Assembly: GCA_038245295.1 (NCBI GenBank)
Contig: JBBRSP010000019.1
Location: forward strand, 37,925 to 101,924
DNA length: 64,000 bases
Origin: Candidatus Binatia bacterium
GTDB lineage: Bacteria > Desulfobacterota > Binatia > HRBIN30
Direction: 5' to 3'
Shown here one piece after another: positions 1,559 through 49,286 of this stretch; position 1 is the first letter of the stretch; each line of letters opens with the position of its first letter. The notes under the pieces are model-generated. The model was not told the DNA's origin. It did no database searches and saw only the letters and a list, made by a program, of their open reading frames with translations. The position numbers were made by a program, and so were the translations under genes.

Positions 1559-2941
1559 ATGAACGATTCGAGTATTGAACCAACCCGAACCGAGCGCGAT
1601 CGTTTGATTGCCGATGCCGTTGCCTATGCGCGGCAGTCCGCCTTCTACAAGGCTCATCTGGCTGGGGCCTATGTCAACGGACGCGCCGACCTGGCGCGCT
1701 TGCCGCTGACCACCAAGGATCATCTGCGCCAGGCGAGTCCGTATGGCATGCTCGCCATCGAACCACACCGCGTCTGGCACTACCACGAATCCAGCGGCAC
1801 CACCGGCGAGCCGATCGCCACCTGGGCCGGCCTGAAGGAAGTGCAGCGTATGGGCAGCATCATCCACGCGATGGTGCCCGAGTTGTCGCAACCGTCGACG
1901 CTCCTCAATCGCTTCCCGCTGTTTTCACCCGTGTCGTTCGTCTTCGAAGAAGCGATGCGGCAGGCCGAGATGTGTCACATCGCCGCCGGCAACTTCAGCT
2001 GGGATGTGCCGTTCTCGCGCGTTCTCGAGTTCATCCACCGCCTCAAAGTAACGGCGCTATCGACCTTGCCGCTGGAGCCGATCCTGTTGCGCGAGTTGGC
2101 CGAGACCGAAGGGCGCTCGATGCGTGACTTCGACTCGCTCAAGGTCATCTTCTGCGGCGGCGCCATCTTGCCGGCGTCGATGCGCCGCCTCATCGAGCGC
2201 GACTGGAGCGCTCGCATTGTCGAGATCTACGGCTCGAATGAAACTCTGCTGCTGGGTGTCGGCTGCACCGCCGGACGCACGCACCTGTGTGAGGAGTTGA
2301 ACGAGTTTGAAGTCCTCGATCCGACGACGCATCAACCCGTCGCCAACGGCGAGGCCGGCATTCTCACCGTAACCAGCCTCGCCCACGAGGCCGCGCCGCT
2401 GGTGCGCTACTACACTGGTGACATCGTCCGTGTTTCGTCCGAGCCATGCCCGTGCGGCAATCCCACCGCGACGATGCAGTGCCTCGGACGGTACGGAGAT
2501 CGCATCATCTACGGCGGTGCGTCGATAACGCCGTTGGAGCTTCTCGACGCCGCCTATGAGTTCGCCGAGCACCTCGGCACCCGCACGTTCTTCATCGTCT
2601 TGTTGCAGAAGAACGTACGCTTCCTCGTCGAAGTCGAGCACCCGACCCGTTTCCGCGGCAGCGAGGCGGAGCGGCGTTTCGTCGAACGCGCCATCGTGCC
2701 CATCGAAGTGGAGTATCTCGACAAGAACGACGTGATGGACCGCAGCGCCCTGTTTCGCTCGCCGAAGATCTACAAACCGAGCCAGATCAGCGACTGGCGC
2801 GGCGGCGGCCGCAAGACGATTACCATCATGGAAGCCCTGCTGGAGTGGCCAACCTACGACAGGCGTACCATCTTCCACATCGTCAAGCGCCAGATCCGCA
2901 ACGGCCTGCGCCGGCGGCGGTTCATCAAGAGTGACCGTTAG
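1559..2941 (+). CDS. Phenylacetate-CoA ligase (PaaK)-family adenylate-forming enzyme
   Basis: LPLTTKDHLR, ESSGTTG P-loop, EIYGSNE, RYYTGD, PCPCG motifs. Confidence 0.85.
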   Translation: MNDSSIEPTRTERDRLIADAVAYARQSAFYKAHLAGAYVNGRADLARLPLTTKDHLRQASPYGMLAIEPHRVWHYHESSGTTGEPIATWAGLKEVQRMGSIIHAMVPELSQPSTLLNRFPLFSPVSFVFEEAMRQAEMCHIAAGNFSWDVPFSRVLEFIHRLKVTALSTLPLEPILLRELAETEGRSMRDFDSLKVIFCGGAILPASMRRLIERDWSARIVEIYGSNETLLLGVGCTAGRTHLCEELNEFEVLDPTTHQPVANGEAGILTVTSLAHEAAPLVRYYTGDIVRVSSEPCPCGNPTATMQCLGRYGDRIIYGGASITPLELLDAAYEFAEHLGTRTFFIVLLQKNVRFLVEVEHPTRFRGSEAERRFVERAIVPIEVEYLDKNDVMDRSALFRSPKIYKPSQISDWRGGGRKTITIMEALLEWPTYDRRTIFHIVKRQIRNGLRRRRFIKSDR

Positions 2942-2952
2942 CTCCGACCCTT

Positions 2953-3190
2953 CACCGTAGAGACGCAGCGTCACAGAGAAAGCCGCGATAGACACAGCCA
3001 GCTACCAGCCGGAACCAACTCAGGCCAACGGCTCTACCTCCGTCATACCGGCGAAAGCCGGTATCTCGCCAGCTTTCGAGGCTTCCAGCAGGGCTAGTTC
3101 CCGGTTTTCACCGGGAGGACGTTCAGCACTTGCCGGTATGTGGACGGAGCAATGAACGGAAAAGTCGGCGCCCGCTGCGCCTCTGCGGTG
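2953..3190. repeat. Composite repeat: outer CACCGYAGAGRCGCAGCG inverted repeat enclosing a palindromic GTCATACCGGCGAAAGCCGGTATC element
   Basis: 2953-2970 vs 3173-3190 inverted (2 mismatches); internal segments shared with copies at ~17270-17350 and ~37300-37355. Confidence 0.8.
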
Positions 3191-3200
3191 GAGGTTCTGG

Positions 3201-4181
3201 TCAGCCGCGGCTCAACTGCGGAAACACCCGCGCCACCTTGCGCCGTAGGTAGTCGCCGTAGGTTCCCTCGAAGTCGTGGACACTCTCGCCATCCCAGCGC
3301 TGGTCGCGGTCGTCGCTGACGCTGCTGCCGAGCTCGATTCGCCCAATGCGATGGATGCGCGCATCGAAGTTGGGATCGAAGAAGAACGGGAACGACAGTC
3401 GACCACGCCCCGAGGTGTTGCGCACGCGGTGCGGCGTCGAACGGTACACGCCGCCGGTCATGCGATCGAGCATATCGCCGATGTTGCAAACGAAGCTATC
3501 CGGGATCGGTGGTGCCTCGAGCCATCCCTGCTTCGACTTAACCTGCAGGCCACCGCAGTCGTCCTGCCTGAGGATGGTCAGCAACCCATAGTCGGTATGT
3601 TCGCCGACACTCCATACCTGCTCGGCGGCGGCGAGCGGCGGGTAATGGAAGATGCGAAATAGGATGAGTGGATCGGTCGTGTAGTGTGTCGCGAAGTAGT
3701 CAGCGTCGAGACCGAGGCTGAGGCCGATGCCACGCATCAGCGTGTGGCCCAATGTCGTCAGCTCGTCCATGTAGCGCAGGACCGTTGCTGCCAACTCAGC
3801 CGGACGCGATGGAAACAGGTTGGCACCGTGCAGCGGCGTGCCGGCGCGAACGTGCGCGTGCTCCGGTCCTAGCTCACGGCCGAAGTAGAGGCCTTCCTTC
3901 TGATCCGGCACCCCCGAGGTCAGTTCGTCGCCGACCGGAAAAAACCCACGCCAGGCAAGGCCGCCGCGCGCCATGGCGATCTGCATCTTCTCGTCGTGTG
4001 GCAGGCTAAAGAATTCGCGACTGAGCGCATCGAGCCGGGCCACCAATGTCGCGTCGACGCCGTGACCAACGACATAGAAGAACCCCGTATCGCGGCAGGC
4101 GACGGCGATCTCCGCCGCTGTGCGCGAGGACGAAGCGTCGGAGCGCAAGGACGAAACGTCAATGACAGGAAGGATGCTCAT
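3201..4181 (-). CDS. 2-oxoglutarate/Fe(II) oxygenase, isopenicillin N synthase family
   Basis: [25 protein letters not shown]...H facial triad, RLS 2OG-binding motif. Confidence 0.92.
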
Positions 4182-4202
4182 CAGGCGCCTCTACGCGCGA
4201 AC

Positions 4203-4342
4203 TCTCCCCTCACCCCGCTCGACTCTGGGACCGCAGGCGCGGGGTGAGGGTTAGGGTGAGGGGACTCGGATGCAAACCGCCAGCGGGCCCTCACCCCGAC
4301 CCTCTCCCACATGCCGCGAACTCGCTCGCGGTGGGAGAGGGA
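4203..4342. repeat. CCCTCACCCC...CTCTCCC...GGGAGAGGG palindromic intergenic repeat
   Basis: Paired ccctcacccc / ggggtgaggg and ccctctcccac / gtgggagaggg arms. Confidence 0.7.
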
Positions 4343-4386
4343 AGTGTTGTCTTTCCATCTCCCACAGGAACAGAGAGGTCCGCGGA

Positions 4387-5559
4387 CTAAGCCGCAACGC
4401 GCGGCGGATTGTAGTTGTCGAACGTGGCGCCTTTGGCCTCGTGATCGGAAAGAATGGCCTCGAAGGGTCGCTGATCGATCACTTCGAACTGGCTGGTCTC
4501 GAGTGGAAAGTTGGCGCCCGCCGGTGTGTACGGCGTCACCGCGGCGGAGCCAGCCGAAATGACCCGGACGACCGGTGCCAGGCGTTGCTGCATCTCACGA
4601 TTCTCGCGCGTCGTGATCACGGTCTTGGCGGTCGGCAGGGCCAGCGCCAGCAGCGATACTAGGCGCACGAATGACTCGTCATCGACATCGCGATGGCTGG
4701 CGCCGCCCGAGATACGTCGCAGGCGCGGCACGGAGAGATACACTTCCATACCAAGCTTCTGCAGATGACGGCTGTGCAAGACCAACGCCGTGAGCTCGTA
4801 GATGAGGGCGGGGTTCAGCCCGAGCAAAATTCCCGGGTGAGCGACGCGCATTCCAGCGCGGAAGGCGCGATCGAAGTTGACCAGGCGGCGCGCAAAATCG
4901 GCGCGTGGGTTGCCCGGCGTCTGCCCCATAAATTTGCGGTAGACCTCCGGCTCGTAGGTTTCCTGAAAGGTCGACATCGTAAGCTTCGGCATGATGGCGC
5001 CGTCGTCGTCGCGGTCGACGCCGTCGAGCAACACGTCGAACTCGTCGTCGTCGATCGAGCCGACATTGATCAGGACGTGTCCGAATTTGAGCTCCTGCGT
5101 CGCACGCACCGCCGCATTGACGTAACGCATCGCCCAGTCGCGGCGCTCGCGCCGGTACTCGCCGGTGAGCAACGCTACGGCCAGCATGCCGCGCTGACTC
5201 AGGATGCGTAGCTGCGCGATCACACCGTCGACATCGGCCGTCTCGCGTTGCAACGCACGGTTGTCCGTGCGCATGCCGCACATCTTACACTCGGCATCGC
5301 AGGTATTGGTCATGTAGAGCGGCGAGAAGGTCTCCAGATTATGTGCCTCGGGCGCCCGCAGAGCCGCGGCGTGATCAAAAATCGCCGCCGTATCGATCGA
5401 TGAGAACCACAGCCGGGCCATATCGGCCGCTGCCAGAGGTGACGTGAGTGTGACCGCGCTCAGCAATCCGGCAGCGTCGATGTGATCGACCTGACTGCGA
5501 GCGGCATCGATCTGTTGATGGAGAGCATCGCTATCGAGTTGAAAATCGTGATGCATCAT
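4387..5559 (-). CDS. Radical SAM aromatic amino acid lyase, NosL/NocL-like (ThiH/HydG superfamily)
   Basis: PLYMTNTCDAECKMC (CxxxCxxC), LLTGEY, INVGS, FQETY, ADFARR, PGILLGL, LSVPR, TTRE, ISAGS, SQF blocks match NosL as recalled. Confidence 0.8.
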   Translation of the reverse strand: MMHHDFQLDSDALHQQIDAARSQVDHIDAAGLLSAVTLTSPLAAADMARLWFSSIDTAAIFDHAAALRAPEAHNLETFSPLYMTNTCDAECKMCGMRTDNRALQRETADVDGVIAQLRILSQRGMLAVALLTGEYRRERRDWAMRYVNAAVRATQELKFGHVLINVGSIDDDEFDVLLDGVDRDDDGAIMPKLTMSTFQETYEPEVYRKFMGQTPGNPRADFARRLVNFDRAFRAGMRVAHPGILLGLNPALIYELTALVLHSRHLQKLGMEVYLSVPRLRRISGGASHRDVDDESFVRLVSLLALALPTAKTVITTRENREMQQRLAPVVRVISAGSAAVTPYTPAGANFPLETSQFEVIDQRPFEAILSDHEAKGATFDNYNPPRVAA

Positions 5560-5975
5560 CGATCGGACCTATAGAGCAGCGCTCGGAGGTTGGTCAACCA
5601 ACAGATTCCGCTAAGGGTTGGGCGTCGGGCGTGGTGGGTCGGGCGTTGCGGACAGTGAGGCGCACCGGAGCGATGGGCCACATGACGATCACCGACGGCG
5701 CCGGAGGAACAGTCGAGGTGGGCAGGGGTCAATCTCGGCCGCCGTCGACTTGCGAGAGTTGAGAGAGTTCTCACAACGCTGTGCGCTTCGGTCGGGAACC
5801 AGCCCGATTCCGTTCTAGTCGGCATCAAGACCGAATTGCCGTGCAAAGCCCCGCCAACGGTCCCCGACCGTTAACCGCACAACCGCCTTCGGTGGGTCCG
5901 ACCCCGGAGCCCCGCCAGCAACCGCATGTCAATTTCGTTTGTCGGGCTTCGCCTTTGAATGGTAGAGCCCCGCTG

Positions 5976-6935
5976 ATGGGGCAACGATCGCGGGTAAAAA
6001 TTGGGGTCGCAGTCTTGTTGGCATGCAATCAGTTCGCTTGTGGAGCAGTGATCAGCGGCACAACGCAGCGAGTGAGAGTGTCTTCAGATCCGGACGCGGC
6101 GCAGATCGAAGCGGTGAGTCGGCGTGGATCACGTAGTGCAACTGCACCGGGATACGTGGATGTTAGCCGTCGTCGGCCAGGCCTTGGGGTCATTCGCGCC
6201 AGCAAGGAGGGCTACCACTCTGCGTGCCGCGTCATCGAATCAAAGCGCGACCCGGCGCTCATGACCCTCGATATCATCCCCGCCGCGCTCCCTCTCCTGC
6301 TCGATCTTATGATTAAAACCTGGCCTCCCGGTGACTACCCGAAGAGTGTCGACTTGGCGCTCGAGCCCTTACCTCAGGGGTGGGTCGACGTGCTGCCATC
6401 GGCCACGGCCATCCTCGACGCGTTTGACATCGCTCAAGTCAACTTCTGCGACCCGTCCGCCGAGCTGAAAGGTTGGATGCGCATTCGCAGTCAGTACGCG
6501 AATCGAGCCACAAGGATTATCGCTACTTCCGGTGATCTATCCCGGCCCTACGATGTCGTGGGCCGCGTCGACGTCAGCGCCGAAGGAACCAACTACTGGG
6601 TATTCAACTACTGGCGGTTCGGCTCGCTTGGCACATTCGACCTCCGCCACTACGAGTACAAAGAAGACCCGGCCGCAATGAATGAGATGTTGAAGTTCAG
6701 AGCCTTCGAGAAATTCGGCGATACGTTCGATGCCATCCTAAACGTTCACTACGAATCCATGCCTCACAACAGCGTCTCCGCGGGGGGCGTAGCGGTCCGC
6801 TTCACGGGCTCCGAGGCATCGGCGCACCAAGGGAATGAGGAGCGACTGAAGGAGATACGAAATCTGCTCGACAAGGGGCTAATTACGAATGAGCAGTATG
6901 AACAGAAGCGAGCAGATATTTTGAAAGGTCTATAG
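5976..6935 (+). CDS. Putative lipoprotein with PEGA-like N-terminal region and C-terminal SHOCT domain
   Basis: Lipobox-like FACG, GTTQRVRVSSDP; C-terminal ERLKEIRNLLDKGLITNEQYEQKRADIL. Confidence 0.7.
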   Translation: MGQRSRVKIGVAVLLACNQFACGAVISGTTQRVRVSSDPDAAQIEAVSRRGSRSATAPGYVDVSRRRPGLGVIRASKEGYHSACRVIESKRDPALMTLDIIPAALPLLLDLMIKTWPPGDYPKSVDLALEPLPQGWVDVLPSATAILDAFDIAQVNFCDPSAELKGWMRIRSQYANRATRIIATSGDLSRPYDVVGRVDVSAEGTNYWVFNYWRFGSLGTFDLRHYEYKEDPAAMNEMLKFRAFEKFGDTFDAILNVHYESMPHNSVSAGGVAVRFTGSEASAHQGNEERLKEIRNLLDKGLITNEQYEQKRADILKGL

Positions 6936-7843
6936 TGGACGCTGGGTCGCGCCCGACGCCGAACGCCGCGACAACGCTGCTGCAAGACGGCGGTCTTGAT
7001 CCGGAGGCCGTCGACTGGGCGCATGTGAGTCTTCCGCCCGCGTGGCCGGATCGGCTGAACCTCCGCCAGGCGCGTGATCTGGCCTACTACGTGGCCCGCC
7101 TGTTTGGCCGCCGCCGTCCGGTTGAGCTACCGACACAGTTAAGACTGCGTCGCGAACTGCCGGCCTACCTGCTGCAGGAGTTCCACCACCTGCCGAACGG
7201 CAATTATTCTCTGCGCCTTAGCGATATCTATGTGACCTGGTTCGATCGCTCGATGCTCGGAACGATGAAACGGGGTCGCGGTCGCATCGTCGACGCGTTG
7301 GCCGGCTGTTTCAGCGTGCTTGATCTCGGTTGCGGTGGGGCCCAGCTCGGGCAGATGCTGCGTCAACGGGGCGTAGCAGAGGTCTGGGGTATGGATGCGT
7401 CGCCGTATCTCTTGCATCAGGCGGCCCGCCGTGTTGCCGGTGTGAAGCTCGTACAAGGCCTGGCGGAGGACAGCGGATTCCCCGCTGAGCGCTTCGATGG
7501 CATCGGCGCCTGCTTCTTGTTTCATGAACTGACGCCGCACGCTGCCGACGACGTCTTGCGCGAGGCCTGGCGCATTCTGAAGCCTAGTGGGCTGCTGGCG
7601 GTAACCGAGCCTTGTCCCGATCAGCTGCACGAACGGAATCTGTGGCGACTCTGGCGTCAGGCTGGCTTGGCTGGTTTTTACTTTGCGACGCTTGCCCGCT
7701 TCGTCCACGAACCCATGCTCGACGCCTGGTATGCAGTCGATCTACGTGCGTGGCTCGACCGCGCCGGCTTCGATCTGTTGAGCGACGAGTCTTGTTTACC
7801 GTTTCGAACGTTTGTGGCGCGCAAGCGCGGTGGCACCGCCTGA
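6935..7843 (+). CDS. Class I SAM-dependent methyltransferase
   Basis: VLDLGCGG, GMDASPYLL, FLFHEL, RILKPSG motifs. Confidence 0.88.
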   Translation: MDAGSRPTPNAATTLLQDGGLDPEAVDWAHVSLPPAWPDRLNLRQARDLAYYVARLFGRRRPVELPTQLRLRRELPAYLLQEFHHLPNGNYSLRLSDIYVTWFDRSMLGTMKRGRGRIVDALAGCFSVLDLGCGGAQLGQMLRQRGVAEVWGMDASPYLLHQAARRVAGVKLVQGLAEDSGFPAERFDGIGACFLFHELTPHAADDVLREAWRILKPSGLLAVTEPCPDQLHERNLWRLWRQAGLAGFYFATLARFVHEPMLDAWYAVDLRAWLDRAGFDLLSDESCLPFRTFVARKRGGTA

Positions 7844-7875
7844 GTATGGGTGTCGACGAACCGGCCCACCCTCGA

Positions 7876-9126
7876 TCAGCGGACCGCGATCTCGGCGTGG
7901 TCGTGTCCGATGGTACCCCACTTCACCATGAAATCGACGAGCCCGACGCTGTAACGACTGCGGGTCGCTTCACCCGTGAAGACACGCGGAAGGTGGCGTC
8001 CGATATGGCGGTTGAGAATCCACCAGGCCCGCTCTTGGGACTTCAGCTGGCCAACCTGAAACAACGTGAACAGGCTGCCGTCGTAGTAGTAGTCCACTAG
8101 GCGTTGCCACACTTTGAGGTTGTAGGCGACATGTGTCTCGAAGCGTTTCATTGCTCGGGTGCTGCCATCGAGAAGAGCTTGCGAGAGTTCGAGCGCGCCT
8201 TCCATGCCGATCAGCAGCCCGCTCGAGAAGACCGGGTCGATGAAGCCGAACGCATCGCCCACGGTGGCCCAGTTTTCGCCGAATCCGCGCAGCGAGCGCA
8301 TCTGGTAGTTGCTGTACTTGACGACGGGTGTGACCCGCTCGGCGCCGTGGCTCCAACGCGCCAGCATCGGTTCCTCGCGCAGCGTTCCAGCGAACTGGTC
8401 CTCGATCGACGCTCCAAAACGCGCCAGGTGGGCGGCGTTGACCACGAGTCCGATCGACACGCGGCCCGGAAGCGGGATGCGCCAGCACCAGCCTCGCGTC
8501 AGGCGATCGGTGTGTACGTTGCCGTCAACGACAAGCGGAACGCCCGTCATGTGGGCGTGCAGCGCCGCGTCCTTACGGGGGCCCTCAACGAACGGCAGCT
8601 CGAGGAGGTTGGCGATCGTACGGCTGCGCCCGGTGGCGTCGACAATCCAATCGGGTTGCTCGCGGATGGTCCCGCCGGCCATCTCCAGTGTTTTCGCGGT
8701 GAGGCGTAGCCGATCGGTGCCGTCGACGCGCTCCAGGCCGGCGGTGGCCTCGATCACCGCGGTGCCGGCGTCCCTTGCGGCCTGAAGGATTACGGCGTCG
8801 AAGAGGTCACGTGGCGTATTGTAGGAGTAGTTGACCTCGGCACCGATAACCTGGTCGAAGCGAAACGTAATGGTGCTCTCGTTCGTCAACACGAAGGTGG
8901 CTCCAGGCTTGTGGGTACTGAAAGCCTTCACCTCCTCCTCGATGCCGAGGCGGCGCAGGAATGGGATGATGGCCGGGACCAATGATTCGCCGACGATGAT
9001 GGGAGGTCGCTTTGGCTTGTGGAAAAGGATCACACGAACCCCGGCACGCGACAGGTAGGTCGCCAGGCTGGCACCCACCGGGCCGCCGCCGAGGATGGCG
9101 ACGGTGCGCACTCTTTGATCCCCCAT
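7876..9126 (-). CDS. Flavin-dependent halogenase-family protein
   Basis: GGGPVG Rossmann, GESL, candidate catalytic Lys in HKPGATF, WCWRIP (WxWxIP), GDAFGFIDPVFSSG. Confidence 0.8.
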   Translation of the reverse strand: MGDQRVRTVAILGGGPVGASLATYLSRAGVRVILFHKPKRPPIIVGESLVPAIIPFLRRLGIEEEVKAFSTHKPGATFVLTNESTITFRFDQVIGAEVNYSYNTPRDLFDAVILQAARDAGTAVIEATAGLERVDGTDRLRLTAKTLEMAGGTIREQPDWIVDATGRSRTIANLLELPFVEGPRKDAALHAHMTGVPLVVDGNVHTDRLTRGWCWRIPLPGRVSIGLVVNAAHLARFGASIEDQFAGTLREEPMLARWSHGAERVTPVVKYSNYQMRSLRGFGENWATVGDAFGFIDPVFSSGLLIGMEGALELSQALLDGSTRAMKRFETHVAYNLKVWQRLVDYYYDGSLFTLFQVGQLKSQERAWWILNRHIGRHLPRVFTGEATRSRYSVGLVDFMVKWGTIGHDHAEIAVR

Positions 9127-9259
9127 GCTCCGACCCTACAATCAGCCGGATGACGACGCAACGGCGTGAGTAGTTCGGCCTGGCAAACGATTTGACAGGT
9201 TTGCCCTCCTTGGGTGAAGAATGGCCCGTGGCGGCTATGGCAGGATCGAACGAGCGGGT

Positions 9260-9514
9260 ATGGTGACCAAAGAAGAACTGGAAGAGCGCATCTTGGCGAT
9301 CGTCCGCGAGGACATCCTGAAGGTCGACGAGAGCTTCACGCCGCAGGCGAACCTCATCGAGGCGGGCCTCGACTCACTGGCGCTGACACAGTTGATGCTG
9401 GCGATCGAGGAGAGTACCGGGCTGTGGGTCGACGAGAGTTTGCTCACGGAAGAGACCGTAGCCAACGTCATCACCTTGACCGCGCTCGTGTATGCCGAAC
9501 TACAGCAACACTGA
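9260..9514 (+). CDS. Acyl/peptidyl carrier protein
   Basis: 84 aa, acidic, GLDSL phosphopantetheinylation motif. Confidence 0.9.
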   Translation: MVTKEELEERILAIVREDILKVDESFTPQANLIEAGLDSLALTQLMLAIEESTGLWVDESLLTEETVANVITLTALVYAELQQH

Positions 9515-10880
9515 CGTCGTGCCGTTGACCGGTGCCGATTGCTTCTTGAGAGCCATCGATTCCGAGGCGCGGCGCAGCGGACAGGCCGGTCATCTTTCCC
9601 AACTCGTGCTCAGACTCGGCCCCGCCTTCGATGTCGACAGGTTCCGGCGTCTCATCGAGGAAGTTTCGCGCGCCAATCCCATCGTGCGCTCACCCATCCG
9701 CCGCCAGGCGGTTGTCGGACCTCCCGTCTACCGCCTCGACCGCGCCGTGCCGCCACCGGGCGTAAGTATCAACCTGCATTCCTTGGCCGCCGTCGTCGCA
9801 GCGAACGATTCGGAGGCACCGGCGCTTGGCGCCATCCCTGATTTATTCTGCCGCCGCCTCAACGATCGACTCGATGCGACACACGGGAGACTACTCTGTT
9901 TCGACCTTGTGCCGCGAGGCGGTGTGCATCCCGGGACTGATCTCGCCATGACTTGGCAGCATATGCTCTTCGACGGCTCCGGCAGCGAGCTTTTCGTCGA
10001 GCACCTCGCGGCGTGTTCGTCCGACCCGTCGCGCGGTCGCGAGTTGCCGATCAACCGCGCCGCCGGCGGCAAGTCATCGTCTGCCGTGGCAGAGTTGGCC
10101 GCGACCGCCGGTGAGCGCGGACAGATGGCCCAGGCCTGGAACACCTACATGCACGGCGTTGCCGCCAAGCGTCCTACCTCACTGGCCGGCCCCTTGCGCC
10201 AGGCGCAACAAGACCTGCGCTACGACCAGGTACGTCTCGAAGGCAGCGACGCCGTGAACGCCATCGACCGAGCCAAAAAGATGGCTGGTTTCCTGACACC
10301 GATGTTGTTCTTTCTCGCCGTATCATTGCGCGCGCACCAGGCGGTTGCCGACCTTCGTGGTCGTTCGTCGACGAGCTGGATCGTGCCGCTACCCGTCGAC
10401 CTGCGACCGAAGGGAGGACAGGGCGAAGTCTTTCGCACGCATGTGTCGCTGCTGTGGTTTCAGGTCACAACCGACGAGACTCGCGACTTGGCTGGGTTGA
10501 TCGAGGTGCTGAAGGTACAGCGCCTCTCGGCCATTCGCGCCAAGCTCGTCGAAGCCGGCGTGGCGGCGTTGGACTTCGCTCGGTACGCGCCGGCGCGGCT
10601 CTATTCACACATGGCCCGTCGCACTTTCGGCGGCGAGCTCGGATCGTTCTTCTTCGCGTACACCGGAGAGTTCGCGCCGGCCGCCGAATCGCTGTGCGGC
10701 GCGACGATCCTCGACGCCTTCCACGCGCCGTCGGTGCCGGCATCGCCCGGCAGCGCTCTGGTGTTCAGCCGGCGCGGCGGCGGCCTCAGCGCGGTGCACG
10801 TCTATCAGCGCGACAGCGTTGATCCTGCCGATCTCGGCGTACTACGCGAGCAGCTGCGGCGCGATCTGGGTGTCCAATGA
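9492..10880 (+). CDS. Stand-alone condensation-domain-like / CoA-dependent acyltransferase
   Basis: WQHMLFDGSG (xHxxxDG), VPLPVDLRP; overlaps the ACP stop. Confidence 0.7.
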   Translation: MPNYSNTDVVPLTGADCFLRAIDSEARRSGQAGHLSQLVLRLGPAFDVDRFRRLIEEVSRANPIVRSPIRRQAVVGPPVYRLDRAVPPPGVSINLHSLAAVVAANDSEAPALGAIPDLFCRRLNDRLDATHGRLLCFDLVPRGGVHPGTDLAMTWQHMLFDGSGSELFVEHLAACSSDPSRGRELPINRAAGGKSSSAVAELAATAGERGQMAQAWNTYMHGVAAKRPTSLAGPLRQAQQDLRYDQVRLEGSDAVNAIDRAKKMAGFLTPMLFFLAVSLRAHQAVADLRGRSSTSWIVPLPVDLRPKGGQGEVFRTHVSLLWFQVTTDETRDLAGLIEVLKVQRLSAIRAKLVEAGVAALDFARYAPARLYSHMARRTFGGELGSFFFAYTGEFAPAAESLCGATILDAFHAPSVPASPGSALVFSRRGGGLSAVHVYQRDSVDPADLGVLREQLRRDLGVQ

Positions 10881-12193
10881 CGATCGTTCGATCGCCGCCG
10901 CCGCACGACTACGCCGTTGCCGTGATCGGCGGCGGTCCGGCGGGCATCGCCGCCGCGCTGGCCGCGGCGAGCTGCGGCGCCAACGTGCTCCTTATTGAGC
11001 GCGACGCGAGGCTCGGTGGCAACGTTTCCCAGGCTCTGGTGCACACGATTTGCGGACTCTATCTCGCGTCGGCGAATCGCGACGCCGTCTTCGCGCATCA
11101 AGGCCTGCCGCGCTTCTTCGCCGAAACGCTGATGGCCGATTGTAGTGCAGGCGAAGTCGGCTGGGCGGGCGATGCCAGCTTCCTGCCGATCGATCCGCAG
11201 GAATTCGGCAATCTGGCCGAGCATCTCTGCGGCAGGAGCGTCTCCATCGACCGCTGGATGGACGCAAGCCTGACGGGACTGGCGCTGGCTCACGGCGACG
11301 GCGGGATGTGCGGCATTGATGTGGAACGAAGCGGCGGCCTCGAGGCACACGCATCTGCCTGGGCGGTTGTCGATGCTACCGGGGACGCAACCGCCGCTGC
11401 ACTCGCCGGCGTTCAGACCGAATACGCACTGCCCGACGAGCTCCAGCACGCGTCGTACATCTTCCGCATTGACGGCGTCGACGGCGCCGCATTGGACCAC
11501 CTGGAGAGAGCTCGTACGAGCCTCGCCGTGGCACGTGCCGCCCGGACCGGCAAAGTCGCGACGACGGCTGCCTCGATTGTCGTGCGCGCCGTGAGTGGCG
11601 AATCGGTGTTCGTGACGCTGAATCTACCGAAACCTACCGGCCGCCCTTTCGATCCTCTCGACGCCGTCGCGTTCGGACACCTGCAAGACACCGCCGCTCG
11701 CGATGCGCGTCAGGTCCTGGCGTTTCTCCTCGCCGAGCGCGGTCCCTTTCGGAACGCTCGACCGGGCGCGTGGCCGGCGCGCGTCGGAATCCGCGAAACC
11801 CGCCGCGTCATCGGCCTCGAGCGCCTTGAGGTTGCCGACGTGCTCGAAGGCAAACGCCGCGACGACGAGGTCTGCATTTCGACGTGGCCGGTAGAGCTCT
11901 GGCACAGTCACGAACGCGTGGTGTTTCGCCACACCGCCGGACCGTCGTCGATTCCGCTGGGGTGTCTGGTTGCCGATCACCCCGGCCGCCGCCTTGCGAT
12001 GGCAGGACGTTGCGTTTCGGCGAGCCACGAAGCCCTTGGCGCGATCCGGGTGATCGGAACATCGATGGCGATGGGTGAAGCGGCCGGCGTTGCCTGTGCG
12101 CTCGCGGCAACGTTTCGCAAAGACCTGTCCTCGATCGATGCTGCCGAGATACGCCACGCCATCGCCTCGGGCGCAACGAGAGCAAACCTGTGA
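10877..12193 (+). CDS. FAD-dependent oxidoreductase
   Basis: VIGGGPAG, VDATGDA, GIRETRR, AGRCVSASHEA; ATGA coupling with the upstream gene. Confidence 0.88.
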   Translation: MTIVRSPPPHDYAVAVIGGGPAGIAAALAAASCGANVLLIERDARLGGNVSQALVHTICGLYLASANRDAVFAHQGLPRFFAETLMADCSAGEVGWAGDASFLPIDPQEFGNLAEHLCGRSVSIDRWMDASLTGLALAHGDGGMCGIDVERSGGLEAHASAWAVVDATGDATAAALAGVQTEYALPDELQHASYIFRIDGVDGAALDHLERARTSLAVARAARTGKVATTAASIVVRAVSGESVFVTLNLPKPTGRPFDPLDAVAFGHLQDTAARDARQVLAFLLAERGPFRNARPGAWPARVGIRETRRVIGLERLEVADVLEGKRRDDEVCISTWPVELWHSHERVVFRHTAGPSSIPLGCLVADHPGRRLAMAGRCVSASHEALGAIRVIGTSMAMGEAAGVACALAATFRKDLSSIDAAEIRHAIASGATRANL

Positions 12194-13641
12194 CGAAGCT
12201 TGCCGAGGGCAAGTTCCCTCCCCAACGGCAAGTGAACGTCTTCGACTGCATCGCCGAGCAGGCGCGGTTGAGGCCGGACCATCCTGCCGTGACCCAGGAC
12301 GGGGCACGAGCGCGCACTGTGACCTACGGCGAGCTTGTCAGGAACGCACGACGCAGGGCCGAGGAGATGCAGCCCTCAGGCATTGCCCGGTCTTGGCGTG
12401 TCGGAATGATCTATCCGCAGGGCGTCGACTTTATCGAGACAGCGCTGGCGCTCCTGTCGCTGCGTGCGTGCATGGTGCCGATCGCCGATGATCACCCGGC
12501 GGCGACCATTGCTGAGATCGTGCGCCGCGCCCATCTGCACGCGTTACTCGACGGAAAGCGGGGCGTGGTGGAGGTGTTGCCCGCAACGCCGCTCGCTCCC
12601 GAGGTGGAAGAAGCCTTCGCCGCCACCGGCCCGGCCTATCTGCGCTTTACATCGGGTACGACGAGCGAGCGAAAGGGGGTGCTGATCGGTCATGCGCGCA
12701 TCCTCGAACGACTCGAGGCTGCCAACCGCGGCCTCGCCATCGGGCCGCAGGACCGGGTGTTGTGGCTGCTGCCGATGGCGCACCATTTCGTCGTATCGAT
12801 CCTGTTGTACCTGCGTTACGGCGCAACCATCCTGCTGCCGTCGACTGGGCTGGCGCCGTCTATTCTCGATCTTGCCGGACGCGAGCGGGCGACGGTGCTG
12901 TACGCGTCGCCGCATCACATGAAGCTGCTGGCCAAGGAAGCATCGACAGTGCGCATGGACACGTTGCGCTTGGTGATCTCGACGGCGGAGGGGCTCCGTG
13001 CGGATGTCGCCGACGCGTTCGCGCAACGCTTCGGCATCGCGATCGTGCAGGCCCTCGGCATCATGGAAGTTGGCCTGCCCGTGATGAACACGGTCAGTGC
13101 CACAACGAAACCCGTCGCGCTCGGCCGGGCGCAACCGGCGTACGAAGTATGGCTGCGCGACGACGACGGCCGTCCGGCGGCTGGTCACAGCCCGGAGACC
13201 AGTGGCGAGATCTGTATCCGGGGGCCCGGGATGCTCGACGCGTATCTCGATCCGTGGACGCCGTGGTCGGATATCGTCGAGCCGGATGGCTTTCGTACGG
13301 GTGACCATGGGTGGTTCGACGGCGACGGCGATCTCCACCTCGCCGGAAGGCGGGCGGCGCGCATCAACATGTCTGGCATGAAGTTCTTCTGCGAGGAGGT
13401 CGAGGCGGTGCTCGATACACACCCCGCCATCCAGAGGAGTCGGGTGTCAGCCAAGCAGCATCCCCACCTCGGCGAGCTTCCGGTGGCCGAGATCGTTCTC
13501 GTCCCCGGTGCGGCGCCCCCTGTGCCGAGGCAACTCACGTCGTTCTGTCGCGAACGTCTGGCCAGTTACATGGTTCCGCGAAGTTTCGAAGTGGTGACGG
13601 AGCTGCCGACGACGCTGACTGGGAAGCTCGCGCGGCGATGA
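12190..13641 (+). CDS. Class I adenylate-forming enzyme (acyl-ACP/CoA ligase)
   Basis: FTSGTTSERKG, GEICIRG, FRTGD, LPTTLTGK; GTGA coupling. Confidence 0.9.
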   Translation: MTKLAEGKFPPQRQVNVFDCIAEQARLRPDHPAVTQDGARARTVTYGELVRNARRRAEEMQPSGIARSWRVGMIYPQGVDFIETALALLSLRACMVPIADDHPAATIAEIVRRAHLHALLDGKRGVVEVLPATPLAPEVEEAFAATGPAYLRFTSGTTSERKGVLIGHARILERLEAANRGLAIGPQDRVLWLLPMAHHFVVSILLYLRYGATILLPSTGLAPSILDLAGRERATVLYASPHHMKLLAKEASTVRMDTLRLVISTAEGLRADVADAFAQRFGIAIVQALGIMEVGLPVMNTVSATTKPVALGRAQPAYEVWLRDDDGRPAAGHSPETSGEICIRGPGMLDAYLDPWTPWSDIVEPDGFRTGDHGWFDGDGDLHLAGRRAARINMSGMKFFCEEVEAVLDTHPAIQRSRVSAKQHPHLGELPVAEIVLVPGAAPPVPRQLTSFCRERLASYMVPRSFEVVTELPTTLTGKLARR

Positions 13642-13808
13642 CTCGAGGCGCGCGGCTTGTGGCTGCGCCCTACCCAAACGCCCTACCGTCCCTCGATTCC
13701 GAGCCGACCCGTCCATTCAACCGGCGATCCGCCCGTTGGGGCGGAATCCGATTGAATGAGGCGCGGGCGGCGTGATACGCGCCCCTACACCAGGGAGACT
13801 CTGAGATC

Positions 13809-15785
13809 ATGAGTAATTTTCGATCGTTCGCGTTATGCGTCGGCGTGTTGGCCGGCTTTGTCGCCGGCCCGGCAAGGGCTGCCGACTGCTCCGCCGGTAG
13901 CTTCAACAGCACCTATGACCTGATCCAGAAGGCGGTCTTCGAGAATCGCGGCTGTACCAACAGTGTTTGCCATGGTGAGGCGGCGACGGGCGGGCTCGAT
14001 CTGCGCGCCGACGTCTCGTACAACAACCTCGTCGATGTCGAGTCGGCCACCATTCCGGGCTGGAAACGCGTGCTGGTTGGCCAGACCGCGGCAAGCTTGT
14101 TCTACGTAAACCTGGCAGCCAAGACGAACCCTGCCCAGTGGACGGCGCCGTTGCGCGCCATGCCGCTTGATCCGGTGCCGGCCCTCACCCAGAACGAGCT
14201 CGACGCGATCCGCCTCTGGATCGAACGCGGCGCGCCGCGCGACGGCGTCGTCCCGGGGACGGACAGGCTACTCGACGCCTGCCTACCGCCACCCGAGCCG
14301 ATCGAAATCAAGCCACTGCCGCCACCGGCACCCGGCACCGGCGTACAGATCAAGATGCCGCGCCTGGTGCTGCGGCCGCACAGTGAGCAGGAAGTCTGCT
14401 TCGCCACCTACTACGACGTGACCGATCAGGTGCCGGCCGAGCTGCGCCGCGCCGACGGTACGTTCCGTTACAAGTATCACGAGACGCGTCAGGACCCGCT
14501 CAGCCATCACATGGTGCCGGTGCTCTATGACGGCGGCACACCGATCACGAGTCCCGTGTGGGGCAACTGGACCTGTCACGGTGGGAACATCGAAGGCCAG
14601 GCGTGTGACCCGCTCAATCTCACCTCGTGTGGCTCGGGCATCTGCACGTCGCAGGTCTCGCCCAGCATCGCCTGCATTGGTTACGGACCCGGCGACGGCG
14701 GCATCGGCCTATCGACGGCGGGCATCTCGATCACGCAACAGACGGCCGAGGAGTTCAAGTTTGCTCCAGGCGTCTACGATTCCCTGCCCACCAAGGGCGT
14801 GATCATGTGGAGCTCGCATGCCTTCAACTTGACGGACCAGCCCGGCAAGCTCGAGGCCTGGCTCAATTTCGAGTTCGCCGGTCTCGACGAACAAATCGAC
14901 CCCGCCGTGCAGATCTTCGACGCGTCGGCGGTCTTCAAGGCCAACGCCCCGGCCTTTGGGACGGATGAGCCGTGCAACATCAGCACCTTCCCGCCCAATA
15001 CACACCTGTTCGAGCTCACGTCGCACACCCACAAGCGCGGCAAGCGCTGGCGCACGTTCCGCGGCGCCTTCCGCTGCCAGGGCGGACCGATAAAGGACCA
15101 GGCGTGCTCGCCGATCGGCTACGACTTCGTCAGCCCGGATGTCTGCCAGGGATCGCCCTGCACCGGTACGACACAACCCAAGTCGGGTGACTGTGACCTC
15201 AGCGGCGACGTCTCTGTTGATGAGATCGTGCGCGGTGTCACGATCGCCCTCGGCAGCGGCGACATCGAGAGCTGCCACCAGATGGACGTCAACGAAGACT
15301 CGGAAGTGTCCGTCGACGAGCTCGTCACCAGTGTGGGCGCCGCTCTCAATGGCGTGCCCGCACCCGTCGCCCGCGATGGCATGGCGAGCCTGATGTACGT
15401 CAGCCTCATCTACAATGATCCGCTCGTCCTCCACAGGAATGACCATCCCATGGTCTTGCAGGGTGGAGCTGACGATCGATCGTTTACCTTCTGCTCACTC
15501 TACGACAACGGCTACACGCATCCGGCCGAGGTGAAAACCAAATCGGGTTCACCGAAGCCACCAATCGCTTTCCCGGGCGTTGGTGGTCCGTGTGACGAGG
15601 CAACCAACTGCACGGCCGGCAAGGTCGGCAATGCGTGTAAGGGCAGAGGACAGCTGGCCCGCAACGCCTCCTGCGACAGCGTCACCGGCATGGGAGACGG
15701 AAAATGTGATGCCTGCCCGCTGCACGGTGGCGTGACGACCGAAGATGAGATGTTCATCCTCCTCGGGCGATACTACGTGCCGTAA
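13809..15785 (+). CDS. Secreted multidomain protein: cytochrome c-like N-terminus, copper monooxygenase-like core, inserted dockerin-like domain
   Basis: Signal peptide; CTNSVCH, MP, IRLWIERGA; SHHM, SHAFN, SHTHKRG, EDEMF; SGDCDLSGDVSVDEI repeat. Confidence 0.65.
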   Translation: MSNFRSFALCVGVLAGFVAGPARAADCSAGSFNSTYDLIQKAVFENRGCTNSVCHGEAATGGLDLRADVSYNNLVDVESATIPGWKRVLVGQTAASLFYVNLAAKTNPAQWTAPLRAMPLDPVPALTQNELDAIRLWIERGAPRDGVVPGTDRLLDACLPPPEPIEIKPLPPPAPGTGVQIKMPRLVLRPHSEQEVCFATYYDVTDQVPAELRRADGTFRYKYHETRQDPLSHHMVPVLYDGGTPITSPVWGNWTCHGGNIEGQACDPLNLTSCGSGICTSQVSPSIACIGYGPGDGGIGLSTAGISITQQTAEEFKFAPGVYDSLPTKGVIMWSSHAFNLTDQPGKLEAWLNFEFAGLDEQIDPAVQIFDASAVFKANAPAFGTDEPCNISTFPPNTHLFELTSHTHKRGKRWRTFRGAFRCQGGPIKDQACSPIGYDFVSPDVCQGSPCTGTTQPKSGDCDLSGDVSVDEIVRGVTIALGSGDIESCHQMDVNEDSEVSVDELVTSVGAALNGVPAPVARDGMASLMYVSLIYNDPLVLHRNDHPMVLQGGADDRSFTFCSLYDNGYTHPAEVKTKSGSPKPPIAFPGVGGPCDEATNCTAGKVGNACKGRGQLARNASCDSVTGMGDGKCDACPLHGGVTTEDEMFILLGRYYVP

Positions 15786-17125: not shown

Positions 17126-17196
17126 GACATTTGGCTACCTGGTCAGTTTGCCATCGGGCGTAATGCGGGTTTCTCGACGTGGTCATACCGGCGAGG

Positions 17197-17396
17197 GAGA
17201 TTATCGATAAACGGAAATGAAGCAACGTCATCCCGGCGGAAGAGACTGTCGTAAAACCAAAGTGGAGCAACGTCATCCCGGTGAAAACCGGGATCTCCCC
17301 CTGGAAGCCTCGAAAGCTGGCGAGATACCGGCTTTCGCCGGTATGACGGAGGTGTGTGCGCGGTTTCAACCGATGAATCAGAGAATCAACAGTCTC
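17197..17396 (+). mobile_element. Nested/hybrid MITE (type A left end, type B inserted at 17242, type A right end)
   Basis: TIR-like gagattatcg / gagactgtcg ... caacagtctc; flanks gagg / gaag inside a gtcataccggcg...gccagtatcc palindrome. Confidence 0.8.
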
Positions 17397-17898: not shown

Positions 17899-18003
17899 CT
17901 ACCGCTCCCATGGGTTCAAGATGGGGGCTCCCGTGTGCTGAAAATCGGTGACGTTTCTGGTCACGACTGTGAAGCCATGATGGATTGCGGTCGCAGCGAT
18001 GAG
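17899..18003 (-). pseudogene. C-terminal remnant of a VapC/PIN toxin
   Basis: Minus strand reads LIAATAIHHGFTVVTRNVTDFQHTGAPILNPWER*; no N-terminus. Confidence 0.75.
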
Positions 18004-18033
18004 GGGCTTTGCACGGCAATTCGCGTTGGAGGA

Positions 18034-18116
18034 CACCGCAGGCTGAAGCCTGCGCCTACCGGTTTACAATCCGCCAGCGTATTCAGCGTGGTAGGCGCAG
18101 GCTTCAGCCTGCGGTG
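18034..18116. repeat. GTAG-type REP doublet (27-bp perfect inverted repeat)
   Basis: caccgcaggctgaagcctgcgcctacc 18034-18060 and its reverse complement 18090-18116; third copy at 26803-26827. Confidence 0.85.
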
Positions 18117-34769: not shown

Positions 34770-35126
34770 TCAGCTGATCGGAACGCCGATGGCTCGCAAG
34801 ATCGCCTTCTCCACTTCGACCATACGCGCGGTCGACAGTGCGCCGCTGAGTGGCCGCGGCAACAATCGATCGCGACGCAGTGTCGTGATCTGCTCGCATT
34901 TCGCTACCGATGGACGCGCCAACCCGCCCTCTCGCGAATGCAGGCGAACGTGCGTCGGCGCCTCGCGCAACACGCTCGAGATGGGGACAACGATGACGTC
35001 ATTGGCCAGGCGGTTACGGACGTCAGGTGACACGACCAGTGCGGGTCGCCGTTTACCGCCGGGCTCGTCGGGAACCTTGACCCAATAGATGTGGGCGCGA
35101 CGAGGGTAGTGATCCTCGCCTGTCAT
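34770..35126 (-). CDS. PemK/MazF family toxin
   Basis: GKRRPALVVSPD, VVPIS, SVAKCEQITT. Confidence 0.9.
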   Translation of the reverse strand: MTGEDHYPRRAHIYWVKVPDEPGGKRRPALVVSPDVRNRLANDVIVVPISSVLREAPTHVRLHSREGGLARPSVAKCEQITTLRRDRLLPRPLSGALSTARMVEVEKAILRAIGVPIS

Positions 35127-35386
35127 CGCTTGGGATCGTTCCAAACCCGCTCCACCGTGTCGTCAGAGCTCTGTGCCCATGCCTCGTCTTCGGCCTTCTC
35201 CACGGCGTTAAGCGACTTGTAATAGCTCTCGATGTCTTGCTCTAGTTGAGCTTGCCGTCGTTCTTGCAGCCAGTGAGCAAGAGCTTGATCAAAGATCGCG
35301 CTACGACTTGCGTCCCCGGCGACGCGTTCAACCTCTTGAAGCAGCTGCGTGCGAACGGTGACCGAAACCTTCGTCTTACCCTGCAT
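35123..35386 (-). CDS. Ribbon-helix-helix antitoxin
   Basis: KVSVTV...SRSAIF; ATGA overlap with the toxin. Confidence 0.8.
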   Translation of the reverse strand: MQGKTKVSVTVRTQLLQEVERVAGDASRSAIFDQALAHWLQERRQAQLEQDIESYYKSLNAVEKAEDEAWAQSSDDTVERVWNDPKR

Positions 35387-43872: not shown

Positions 43873-43983
43873 CGGTTGTTCCCTTTCCTCATCATCCCGC
43901 TTCCGCGATGGCAACGGCAACCACTTCCACAGGCCAGCCGCTTTATTTCTACCGTACCAAATTGTCCATAGGCGTCTGCCCAG

Positions 43984-45267: not shown

Positions 45268-45395
45268 GCGAGTATTCTCCTCATCAAACTGTGTGCCGCA
45301 CCGCCATACGCCATGAACTGGCGCAACACGTCGTCGAGTTGGGTCCGTCGCGTACTCAGTGTGAGGAGCGCGAAGTTATCACAGTGAGTCCGCTA

Positions 45396-45863: not shown

Positions 45864-45957
45864 GGGCAATCTCTCGAACGCGCGGCGCAGGCTGGGCGGA
45901 GAACAGCGCCTCCCGGAGTCGTGCCTTGCGGCAACGCTTCCAAGAGGCGCTCAGGCA

Positions 45958-46269: not shown

Positions 46270-46366
46270 AAATGTCTCCTCCTTTCCTTCGTTTTCAGAG
46301 TTTTCAGCCGCCACGCCTCTCATCCTCTTCCACAGCTCCTCGGCGGCACTACTCTCGAGACCGGAT

Positions 46367-47095: not shown

Positions 47096-47097
47096 GG

Positions 47098-47677: not shown

Positions 47678-47717
47678 TTGCTTTTGGTTCAGCTCCGTGG
47701 GTTCCCCCTACTGTTCC

Positions 47718-49272: not shown

Positions 49273-49286
49273 GAAGTCGCCGTGAA

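What the first reader, a model, noticed from the sequence alone, without database searches (positions are those of the whole stretch)
1559..13641. Candidate indole-carboxylate biosynthetic cluster built on a NosL-like enzyme without thiopeptide genes
Seen: within 12 kb lie a NosL-like radical SAM enzyme, two adenylating enzymes, an ACP, a WxWxIP flavin halogenase, a stand-alone xHxxxDG condensation-like protein, an FAD oxidoreductase, a methyltransferase and a 2OG/Fe oxygenase. No YcaO, LanB-type dehydratase or precursor peptide is visible. Known: in nosiheptide biosynthesis NosL converts Trp to 3-methylindole-2-carboxylate (MIA), which NosI loads onto the ACP NosJ. Inference: a MIA-like acid is loaded on the ACP, halogenated and condensed into a non-RiPP small molecule in a non-actinobacterial host. 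Mixed orientations and intervening repeats mean the genes may not form one pathway.
Basis: partly seen in the sequence, partly recalled or inferred. Interest (0 to 1): 0.85.

Follow-up and report, generated by a model that had tools for sequence, protein, structure and literature searches.

The report
Indole-acid unit beside imported halogenase cassette
The stretch holds two separately inherited gene sets: a tryptophan-cleaving enzyme with its ligase, which likely supply a methylindole acid for an undescribed aryl-polyene-type membrane lipid of Binatia bacteria, and a likely imported halogenase-carrier cassette whose close relatives lack that enzyme, so a single indole pathway is unlikely.

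Summary
All listed genes are real and intact. The radical SAM enzyme belongs to the NosL (tryptophan) branch by fold, tree and three published markers, but scores below the curated NosL cut-off. No YcaO was found in the genome.

The 12 kb is not one pathway. Among 301 class genomes, the NosL-like gene (64) travels with the PaaK/FlxY-like ligase (65; 62 shared), mostly inside or beside aryl-polyene-type lipid clusters; this genome has that cluster scattered over other contigs. The halogenase-ACP-condensation-FAD oxidoreductase-ligase cassette has close orthologues in 23 other genomes, none with a NosL hit, and in 80 metagenome loci, none with NosL or PaaK. It nests inside another family's clade and was not found in 25 other genomes of this family. 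The methyltransferase follows the cassette; the 2OG oxygenase and SHOCT gene look like passengers.

Best reading (inferred): NosL-like makes 3-methylindole-2-carboxylate, the PaaK-like ligase activates it, and it caps an aryl-polyene-type lipid; use as polyene starter is the close rival. The scan reported the NosL-ligase lipid link before on other genomes (four notes); the cassette analysis was not among the notes found. Not found in print in four searches.

The parts
1559..2941 (+). PaaK/FlxY-like aryl-acid adenylating ligase, the co-inherited partner of the NosL-like gene; conserved basic C-terminal extension
   Evidence: 62 genomes shared with NosL-like; alignment; groups with family f1 orthologues
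3036..3123 (.). Dispersed palindromic intergenic repeat (REP-like), not part of the pathway
   Evidence: inverted copy at 17269-17353; 171 hits on 43 contigs
3201..4181 (-). 2OG/Fe(II) oxygenase (DIOX_N + 2OG-FeII_Oxy), likely passenger
   Evidence: only in the own-genome locus among 223 fetched loci; 1 of 25 other family genomes, there on a different contig from NosL
4196..4345 (.). Second dispersed intergenic repeat
   Evidence: 78 hits on 31 contigs
4387..5559 (-). NosL-branch radical SAM aromatic amino acid lyase (390 aa), predicted Trp to 3-methylindole-2-carboxylate
5976..6935 (+). SHOCT-domain lipoprotein-like gene, likely passenger; start codon inferred
   Evidence: only in the own-genome locus among 223 fetched loci
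6935..7843 (+). Class I SAM methyltransferase; 72% paralogue inside the genome's KS operon on C2; distribution follows the cassette
7876..9126 (-). Flavin-dependent halogenase-like protein (K73, WxWxIP), divergent from the ACP operon; part of the cassette
   Evidence: nests in the family f7 clade, 80% identity
9260..9514 (+). Acyl carrier protein (DSL, Ser39)
9492..10880 (+). Stand-alone condensation/PapA5-fold acyltransferase with invariant H157 and D161
10877..12193 (+). PF12831 FAD-dependent oxidoreductase, no solved relative beyond the FAD motif
12190..13641 (+). ANL-family adenylating ligase of the cassette; motif AHHFVVSILL, lacking the amino-acid-binding Asp
   Evidence: 0 of 25 other family genomes

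Best explanation
The stretch holds two separately inherited units: a NosL-like enzyme and a PaaK-like ligase that likely make and activate 3-methylindole-2-carboxylate to cap an aryl-polyene-type membrane lipid, and a likely imported halogenase-ACP cassette predicted to build a different acyl group. Steps: (1) The radical SAM enzyme cleaves and rearranges tryptophan as NosL does (inferred from fold and markers). (2) The PaaK-like ligase adenylates the indole acid, then passes it to CoA, a carrier or directly to an acceptor at the membrane (partnership shown by co-inheritance; chemistry inferred). (3) The indolyl group is attached to the head of a lipid whose chains come from two KS/chain-length-factor pairs, FabG, FabZ and an ACP, with LolA and MMPL for export (genes shown on contigs C2 and C9; lipid inferred by analogy with APELs). 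The deacetylase, UPF0104 membrane protein and ICMT-like trio on C2 is the best candidate for freeing and acylating an amino-sugar (inferred). (4) The cassette loads an unknown non-amino acid on its own ACP, oxidises and probably halogenates it, and the C-fold enzyme transfers it, probably to the same class of lipid (inferred). Here it lacks the CrtI-like desaturase that usually follows the halogenase, so it may be incomplete.
For: NosL branch: TM 0.89 to 4R33 against 0.72-0.78 to ThiH/HydG. It has Asn for ThiH E158, Gln for R306 and no beta-8 insertion, the markers named in PMC9046217; 22 NosL-type rows form one side of a 99-supported split from 13 ThiH/HydG-type rows. Pairing: 62 genomes have both genes, 2 NosL only, 3 ligase only, of 301, and the pattern is patchy within families; adjacent or near in 18 of 40 loci. 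Eleven genomes keep the CLF-like KS but lack both, and 35 of the 62 lack the cluster ammonia-lyase, so the ligase follows NosL, not the lyase. Lipid context: at least 31 of 40 NosL loci carry lipid-cluster genes, at least 21 the UPF0104 gene and 19 a KS (labels). Ligase>NosL>UPF0104 recurs as a block in family f12 and in records titled Myxococcota and Spirochaetales. Own genome: two intact KS and two Cys-less CLF-like copies. Cassette independence: 0 of 23 other genomes with close orthologues have a NosL hit (a profile search of 5 of them found only weak N-terminal hits at 1e-5 to 1e-6); 0 of 80 metagenome loci carry NosL or PaaK, while 16 of 27 long ones carry LolA and 20 the desaturase; halogenase, ligase and oxidoreductase nest in family f7.
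Against: No product or activity is known. The enzyme scores 246 against a cut-off of 400 for TIGR04158 and sits as a sister clade to the curated MIA-synthase rows, at support 90; position 196 is Ser where NosL has Cys. NosL lies next to cassette genes in 8 of 40 loci (all genus g64, some with only the methyltransferase) and in G131, and 10 of 15 genomes with distant C-like paralogues have NosL; a foreign cassette landing about 2 kb from NosL in a 6.6 Mb genome suggests some functional tie. Cap versus starter is not resolved: NosL often converges directly on the KS-CLF operon, and FlxY, a ligase of the same family, activates the flexirubin starter (PMC3992019). The CLF query misses divergent copies (3 of 25 in f12, 0 of 20 in f9, where KS pairs are seen in the loci), so core counts are partial. 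Four family f5 loci show only ligase and NosL among nitrogen-regulation genes; KS clusters lie elsewhere in the two f5 genomes opened. Kin are not independent.
Confidence: 0.45

Rival explanations
1. Same two units, but the activated methylindole acid is the starter of the type II polyketide chain, giving an indolyl-polyene pigment lipid, as FlxA/FlxY prime flexirubin.
For: The ligase matches the FlxY and BagE families, below cut-off; FlxY makes the 4-coumaroyl-CoA starter (PMC3992019, passages). NosL converges on or abuts KS-CLF in many f1, f3, f4 and f9 loci. 35 of 62 genomes lack the cluster ammonia-lyase. The own-genome KS operon has no ligase of its own.
Against: The KS core persists in 11 genomes without either gene. 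f13, f9 and f5 KS operons carry their own ANL ligase with or without NosL. Ligase>NosL>UPF0104 appears as a three-gene block in clusters that already hold an ammonia-lyase or a long ligase.
Confidence: 0.27
2. One reading: the cassette ligase loads the methylindole acid on the cassette ACP, the halogenase chlorinates it and the C-fold enzyme condenses it into a stand-alone small molecule.
For: Physical adjacency on one contig. NosL beside cassette genes in g64 and G131. The halogenase's best solved relatives include PltA and ChlB4, which act on carrier-bound substrates (recalled). The NosI/NosJ precedent (PMC5585349).
Against: Close cassette orthologues occur without NosL in 23 of 23 other genomes and 80 of 80 metagenome loci, with an identical pocket motif. 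53 of 64 NosL genomes have no C-like hit. The g64 cassette belongs to a distant clade.
Confidence: 0.12
3. The radical SAM enzyme gives another product: it cleaves C-alpha/C-beta to release 3-methylindole and dehydroglycine (a ThiH stand-in for thiamine), or it acts on a modified aromatic amino acid.
For: The genome has ThiG but no ThiO or ThiH above cut-off. PMC9046217 states that the markers select the substrate, not the bond cleaved.
Against: No thiamine gene family was recognised among the recurring neighbours. Two near-complete relatives without NosL (G050, G014) also have ThiG and no ThiO above cut-off, so the gap is not diagnostic. An acid-activating ligase is the strict partner.
Confidence: 0.08
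4. The NosL-ligase pair makes a free indole amide or ester (ligase acting alone as an amide or ester synthetase) unrelated to the lipid genes.
For: Best solved relatives include AjiA1 and a PaaK-like ligase, recalled as bond-forming benzoxazole ligases. In four f5 loci the pair stands without lipid genes.
Against: Lipid-cluster genes lie within at least 31 of 40 NosL loci across several families, and the block with UPF0104 recurs in distant records.
Confidence: 0.08

Closest known systems
NosL/NosI/NosJ of nosiheptide (PDB 4R33, 6HTK; TIGR04158; PMC5585349)
   Same: NosL fold, CxxxCxxC motif, R323 and S340 equivalents, Trp-type markers; paired with an adenylating enzyme
   Different: About 38% identity, below the family cut-off, sister clade; no YcaO; partner is a PaaK-family ligase with a basic tail; context is lipid genes, not a RiPP
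Aryl polyene lipids (APEL, Xenorhabdus ape cluster; bioRxiv 10.1101/2020.12.19.423268) and flexirubin (FlxA/FlxY; PMC3992019)
   Same: KS, CLF, ACP, dehydratase, ketoreductase, RND/MMPL exporter, LolA, acyl- and glycosyltransferases, deacetylase; an aromatic-acid-forming enzyme plus a PaaK-family ligase
   Different: Two full-length KS/CLF pairs, B12 radical SAM enzymes, a NosL-type enzyme; genes dispersed over several contigs here; KS below the PRK09185 cut-off
Kuenenia/Desulfotalea/Geobacter unusual lipid clusters (PMC2649909; TIGR04072)
   Same: Divergent FabF paralogues, B12 radical SAM, 'phenylacetyl-CoA ligase', phytoene-dehydrogenase-like genes; one relative's enzyme passes TIGR04072
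   Different: No NosL-type gene in the passages read; this genome's B12 enzyme does not pass TIGR04072
Celluxanthenes (PMC12144888)
   Same: Indole-containing aryl polyene, described there as the first such pigments
   Different: Iterative type I PKS, phenylacetate starter, indole from a Trp keto acid in a tetronate; no NosL chemistry
Carrier-protein halogenation cassettes (PltA; ChlB4; CmlS)
   Same: Ligase, carrier protein, flavin oxidoreductase, halogenase with catalytic Lys and WxWxIP
   Different: Ligase lacks the amino-acid Asp; oxidoreductase is PF12831, not an acyl-CoA dehydrogenase (pyoluteorin comparison recalled); a stand-alone C-fold transferase; substrate unknown

Membership tests
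NosL / TIGR04158 MIA synthase | Score above the curated cut-off | tested here: not met
   246 bits against 400
NosL / TIGR04158 MIA synthase | Radical SAM CxxxCxxC and NosL fold | tested here: met
   C87, C91, C94 invariant in 31 rows; TM 0.89 to 4R33
NosL / TIGR04158 MIA synthase | Trp-type markers: no beta-8 insertion, no R306 equivalent, no E158 equivalent; conserved R323 | tested here: met
   21-residue spacing, Q324, N165, R318; markers from PMC9046217. All 13 ThiH/HydG-type rows have 22 residues and Arg; the Asn alone is not diagnostic (9 of these 13 also have it)
NosL / TIGR04158 MIA synthase | Converts L-Trp to 3-methylindole-2-carboxylate | not testable with these tools
   needs an assay
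Thiopeptide (nosiheptide-type) cluster | YcaO cyclodehydratase | tested here: not met
   0 hits in the genome, control rang in 5 of 14
Thiopeptide (nosiheptide-type) cluster | LanB-type dehydratase | tested here: inconclusive
   0 hits, but control rang in 0 of 14
Thiopeptide (nosiheptide-type) cluster | Precursor peptide, NosK, NosN | not tested
   no search run
Aryl polyene cluster | KS, CLF, ACP, dehydratase, ketoreductase and transporter genes | tested here: met
   all on contig C2, 112-130 kb, with a further KS on C9; not in the window; ACP passes PRK09184
Aryl polyene cluster | KS of the PRK09185 subfamily (its link to aryl polyenes is recalled) | tested here: not met
   329 and 285 bits against 407; closer by score to FabF and 9S5H than to 6QSP
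Aryl polyene cluster | Conjugated polyene product | not testable with these tools
   no culture or extract
Flavin-dependent halogenase | GxGxxG, catalytic Lys, WxWxIP | tested here: met
   GGGPVG, K73, W213-P218; best solved hits are halogenases
Flavin-dependent halogenase | Halogenation activity | not testable with these tools
   QhpG and LodB models also hit below cut-off
Condensation/PapA5 acyltransferase superfamily | Two-lobed fold with HxxxD | tested here: met
   pLDDT 87.5; Foldseek E 1e-19 to 1e-15 to AzeD and C/E domains at 12-17% identity; H157 and D161 invariant in 20 rows
PaaK phenylacetate-CoA ligase / FlxY | Score above the equivalog cut-off | tested here: not met
   PaaK 102 against 646; FlxY 101 against 520; BagE 155 against 800

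The most novel reading that the evidence does not exclude
Binatia and some Myxococcota-type bacteria make a widespread, undescribed class of membrane pigment lipids whose polyene chain starts from a radical-SAM-made methylindole acid, and this genome has recruited a foreign halogenase cassette next to NosL to add a halogenated group to it. NosL chemistry would then be mainly a lipid reaction, with thiopeptides as the exception.
Probability: 0.15. Interest if true: 0.85.

Novelty: new variant of a known kind. Interest (0 to 1): 0.6.

Why it matters
In the papers read, NosL chemistry is described only for thiopeptides. Here a sister clade (771 proteins at E <= 1e-40 among 8000 candidates, which may include curated NosL relatives; 64 of 301 class genomes) is tied to a dedicated ligase and to aryl-polyene-type lipid genes. 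That predicts indole-bearing membrane lipids in an uncultured soil and sediment lineage and offers a two-enzyme test in vitro. The halogenase-ACP-C cassette is a second conserved, uncharacterised unit of such clusters. This window is a poor model for the whole pathway, because its cluster is scattered and the cassette is a recent arrival; G131 (L108) and G068 (L031) hold more complete versions.

Tried and rejected
One indole-halogenation pathway: rejected as the main reading (see rivals). Ligase as partner of the ammonia-lyase: rejected, 35 of 62 genomes lack the lyase at E <= 1e-120. ThiH stand-in: made unlikely. Mis-assembly: one contig spans NosL to the cassette. Composition as a sign of transfer: weak; cassette GC3 is 0.74-0.82 against 0.76-0.82 for the NosL pair, and codon scores are lower for C, oxidoreductase and ligase only. 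Promoter and terminator scan: no excess over shuffles. Expression: no RNA holder listed. Oxidoreductase function: no solved relative or informative Atlas hit. The two ligases show no significant pairwise similarity. The careful halogenase tree did not finish, so the quick tree was used; the other cassette trees are FastTree. My codon-based gene caller failed on low-GC loci L178 and L180, which I dropped, and missed or fused some genes elsewhere, so counts are lower bounds. The Atlas search for the C-like protein did not complete. No complex prediction was run. Literature: searches (NosL + aryl polyene, 0 papers) listed no paper on NosL homologues in lipid or polyketide clusters; PMC8262859 main text has 0 occurrences of polyene, NosL, polyketide or indole. 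Subscription papers and supplements were not seen.

Full report
Observation. The host is a Ca. Binatia-type bacterium by the names of its relatives; the genome is 96.6% complete. YcaO is not found, with a working control; the LanB search is uninformative. The repeats at 3036-3123 and 4196-4345 are genome-wide elements. A single contig of the probable source run covers 3064-14200, so the arrangement is real.

The radical SAM enzyme. It scores 224 bits against S. actuosus NosL and 85 against ThiH and HydG, and 246 against TIGR04158, whose cut-off is 400. Its model (pLDDT 89.8) matches NosL at TM 0.89 and ThiH/HydG at 0.72-0.78. PMC9046217 (passages) names a one-residue insertion at strand beta-8 and R306 as the markers for tyrosine, and E158 as a ThiH contact. 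The window protein has NosL spacing, Gln324 and Asn165, while all 13 ThiH/HydG-type rows have the insertion and the Arg. The R323 and S340 equivalents are R318 and S335 (S340 from PMC4916742, one passage; the roles of P88, Y90 and C200 are recalled). In the tree, the Binatia rows are sister to the rows that include a curated MIA synthase. It therefore works like NosL by every sequence test but is not a member of the curated family. The same paper says these markers do not explain which bond is cut, so the product is inferred.

Its partner. In the same 301 class genomes the NosL-like gene was found in 64 and the PaaK-like ligase in 65; 62 have both. The pattern is patchy inside families (f1 7 of 23, f3 9 of 18, f9 4 of 20, f13 11 of 19), so it is not only descent, though kin are not independent. 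Eleven genomes have the CLF-like ketosynthase and neither gene. The cluster ammonia-lyase occurs in only 27 of the 62, so the ligase is not its partner. The ligase carries a conserved basic C-terminal extension beyond the PaaK models.

Their context. I fetched the DNA around NosL from 40 of the 63 other genomes, chosen for score and contig length. The ligase lies within 18 of them. At least 31 carry lipid-cluster genes: KS pairs, FabG, B12 radical SAM enzymes, lipid A-type acyltransferase, polysaccharide deacetylase, UPF0104 membrane protein, ICMT-like protein, MMPL, LolA or ammonia-lyase. Of 73 loci from the genome collection I annotated 26 and dropped 2 low-GC ones; the block ligase>NosL>UPF0104 recurs in records titled Myxococcota and Spirochaetales, often with MMPL, LolA, PlsC and ACP (titles may not reflect GTDB placement). 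The window's own genome has this gene set in pieces: C2 112-130 kb (CLF-like, deacetylase, methyltransferase paralogue, halogenase-like, FabG, ACP, KS, CLF, LolA, FabZ, MMPL), C9 (KS, Omp85), C5 (B12 enzyme, PlsC), C2 285 kb (deacetylase, UPF0104, ICMT-like) and C37 (lyase). Two KS keep Cys-His-His and two lack the Cys. This resembles the ape set that builds APELs (bioRxiv 10.1101/2020.12.19.423268, whole text), the flexirubin cluster (PMC3992019, passages) and the Kuenenia/Desulfotalea clusters (PMC2649909, passages).

The cassette. The C-like protein was found in 39 of 301 genomes. The 23 other genomes with close orthologues (E below 1e-60) have no NosL hit; 10 of 15 with distant paralogues do. 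Eighty metagenome loci carry no NosL or PaaK; among the 27 of at least 10 kb, 27 have the oxidoreductase and ACP, 26 the ligase, 23 the halogenase, 20 a CrtI-like desaturase, 16 LolA and 13 the lyase. In family f7 the cassette lies 20-50 kb from a lipid cluster that includes MMPL, LolA, lyase, ACPs, a KS and a COG4648-like gene. The window's halogenase, ligase and oxidoreductase nest among f7 sequences (80%, 79%, 64% best identity), whereas the PaaK-like ligase groups with f1 and the cassette ligase is found in 0 of 25 other f1 genomes. Transfer from an f7-like donor is the simplest reading. The ligase motif AHHFVVSILL is the same in all 13 close orthologues aligned and lacks the amino-acid Asp, so its substrate is probably a non-amino acid that does not need NosL. 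The genome has no close copy of the desaturase partner (best 30-32%). The methyltransferase occurs in 16 other genomes, 14 with a C-like gene and 10 with NosL. The 2OG oxygenase occurs in 1 of 25 family genomes.

What speaks for a link. NosL is next to cassette genes in genus g64 (8 of 40 loci) and in G131, where everything lies in 20 kb, and the imported cassette here sits about 2 kb from NosL. In genus g50, which lacks NosL, the halogenase runs straight into deacetylase, UPF0104 and ICMT-like genes, and 8 of the 11 genomes with CLF but no NosL pair have the cassette. I read this as two alternative or parallel suppliers of a small acyl group to the same kind of lipid, not one linear pathway.

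Mechanism. Shown: genes, motifs, co-inheritance, contexts. Inferred: Trp to methylindole acid; activation by the PaaK-like ligase; attachment to an aryl-polyene-type lipid. I put the acyl-cap route at 0.45 and the polyene-starter route at 0.27. I first favoured the starter; note e1-5015691 raised the cap idea, and the ligase>NosL>UPF0104 block and the operon-borne ligases of f13, f9 and f5 then supported it.

Novelty. NosI/NosJ are described in PMC5585349 (first part and passages). Celluxanthenes are called the first indole-containing polyene pigments and arise differently (PMC12144888, first two of four parts). Searches listed nothing on NosL homologues in lipid clusters, and the Binatota paper does not mention them (PMC8262859, term search). 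The scan had already noted the NosL-ligase lipid link on four other genomes; one note describes a looser halogenase-ACP-transferase block in a Flavobacteriales genome. Verdict: a new variant of a known kind, interest 0.6.

Noticed in passing
window 13809-15785 (+): 658-aa secreted protein with no Pfam hit but HH, HxH and EDEMF motifs that recall two-copper PHM/DBH monooxygenases (motifs recalled; a similar family is noted in e1-5090222), plus an EF-hand-like repeat.
   Followed up: no
window 58918-61860 (-): Methylamine dehydrogenase genes (light chain, MauE, heavy chain), as reported for Binatota in PMC8262859.
   Followed up: no
window 42775-57118: recA, cinA, dnaA, dnaN, gyrB and gyrA: the locus is chromosomal and near the likely origin.
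   Followed up: no
window 34770-35386 (-): PemK/MazF-like gene with a small upstream ORF, a probable type II toxin-antitoxin pair.
   Followed up: no
L072:8224-9588 (G000:C2, about 124-125.6 kb): A TrpB2-type tryptophan synthase beta gene (above cut-off) lies between the KS operon and the LolA-FabZ-MMPL operon; it was not seen among recurring neighbours in relatives.
   Followed up: partly
L108 (G131:C43:1-19900): Most compact version seen: PaaK-like, NosL-like, B12 radical SAM, ligase, ACP, FAD oxidoreductase, ligase, two halogenases, methyltransferase, C-like, FabZ, LolA, KS pair, ACP and FabG in 20 kb.
   Followed up: partly
L043-L045, L066 (family f5): The NosL-ligase pair sits among ammonium transporter, P-II and porin genes, away from the KS cluster.
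   Followed up: partly
L033, L035, L060, L062, L063 (genus g64): NosL is flanked by a C45 autoproteolytic acyltransferase and a hot-dog thioesterase, candidates for indolyl transfer in that genus.
   Followed up: no
P0265, P0264: Other NosL-branch proteins outside Binatia: a 711-aa fusion of a SPASM-type radical SAM with a NosL-like domain, and a Clostridium protein annotated ThiH that scores best to TIGR04158.
   Followed up: no
window 5832-5852 and 18003-18023; 17182-17353; 18034-18116: A 21-nt exact inverted pair 12 kb apart and further intergenic palindromes.
   Followed up: no
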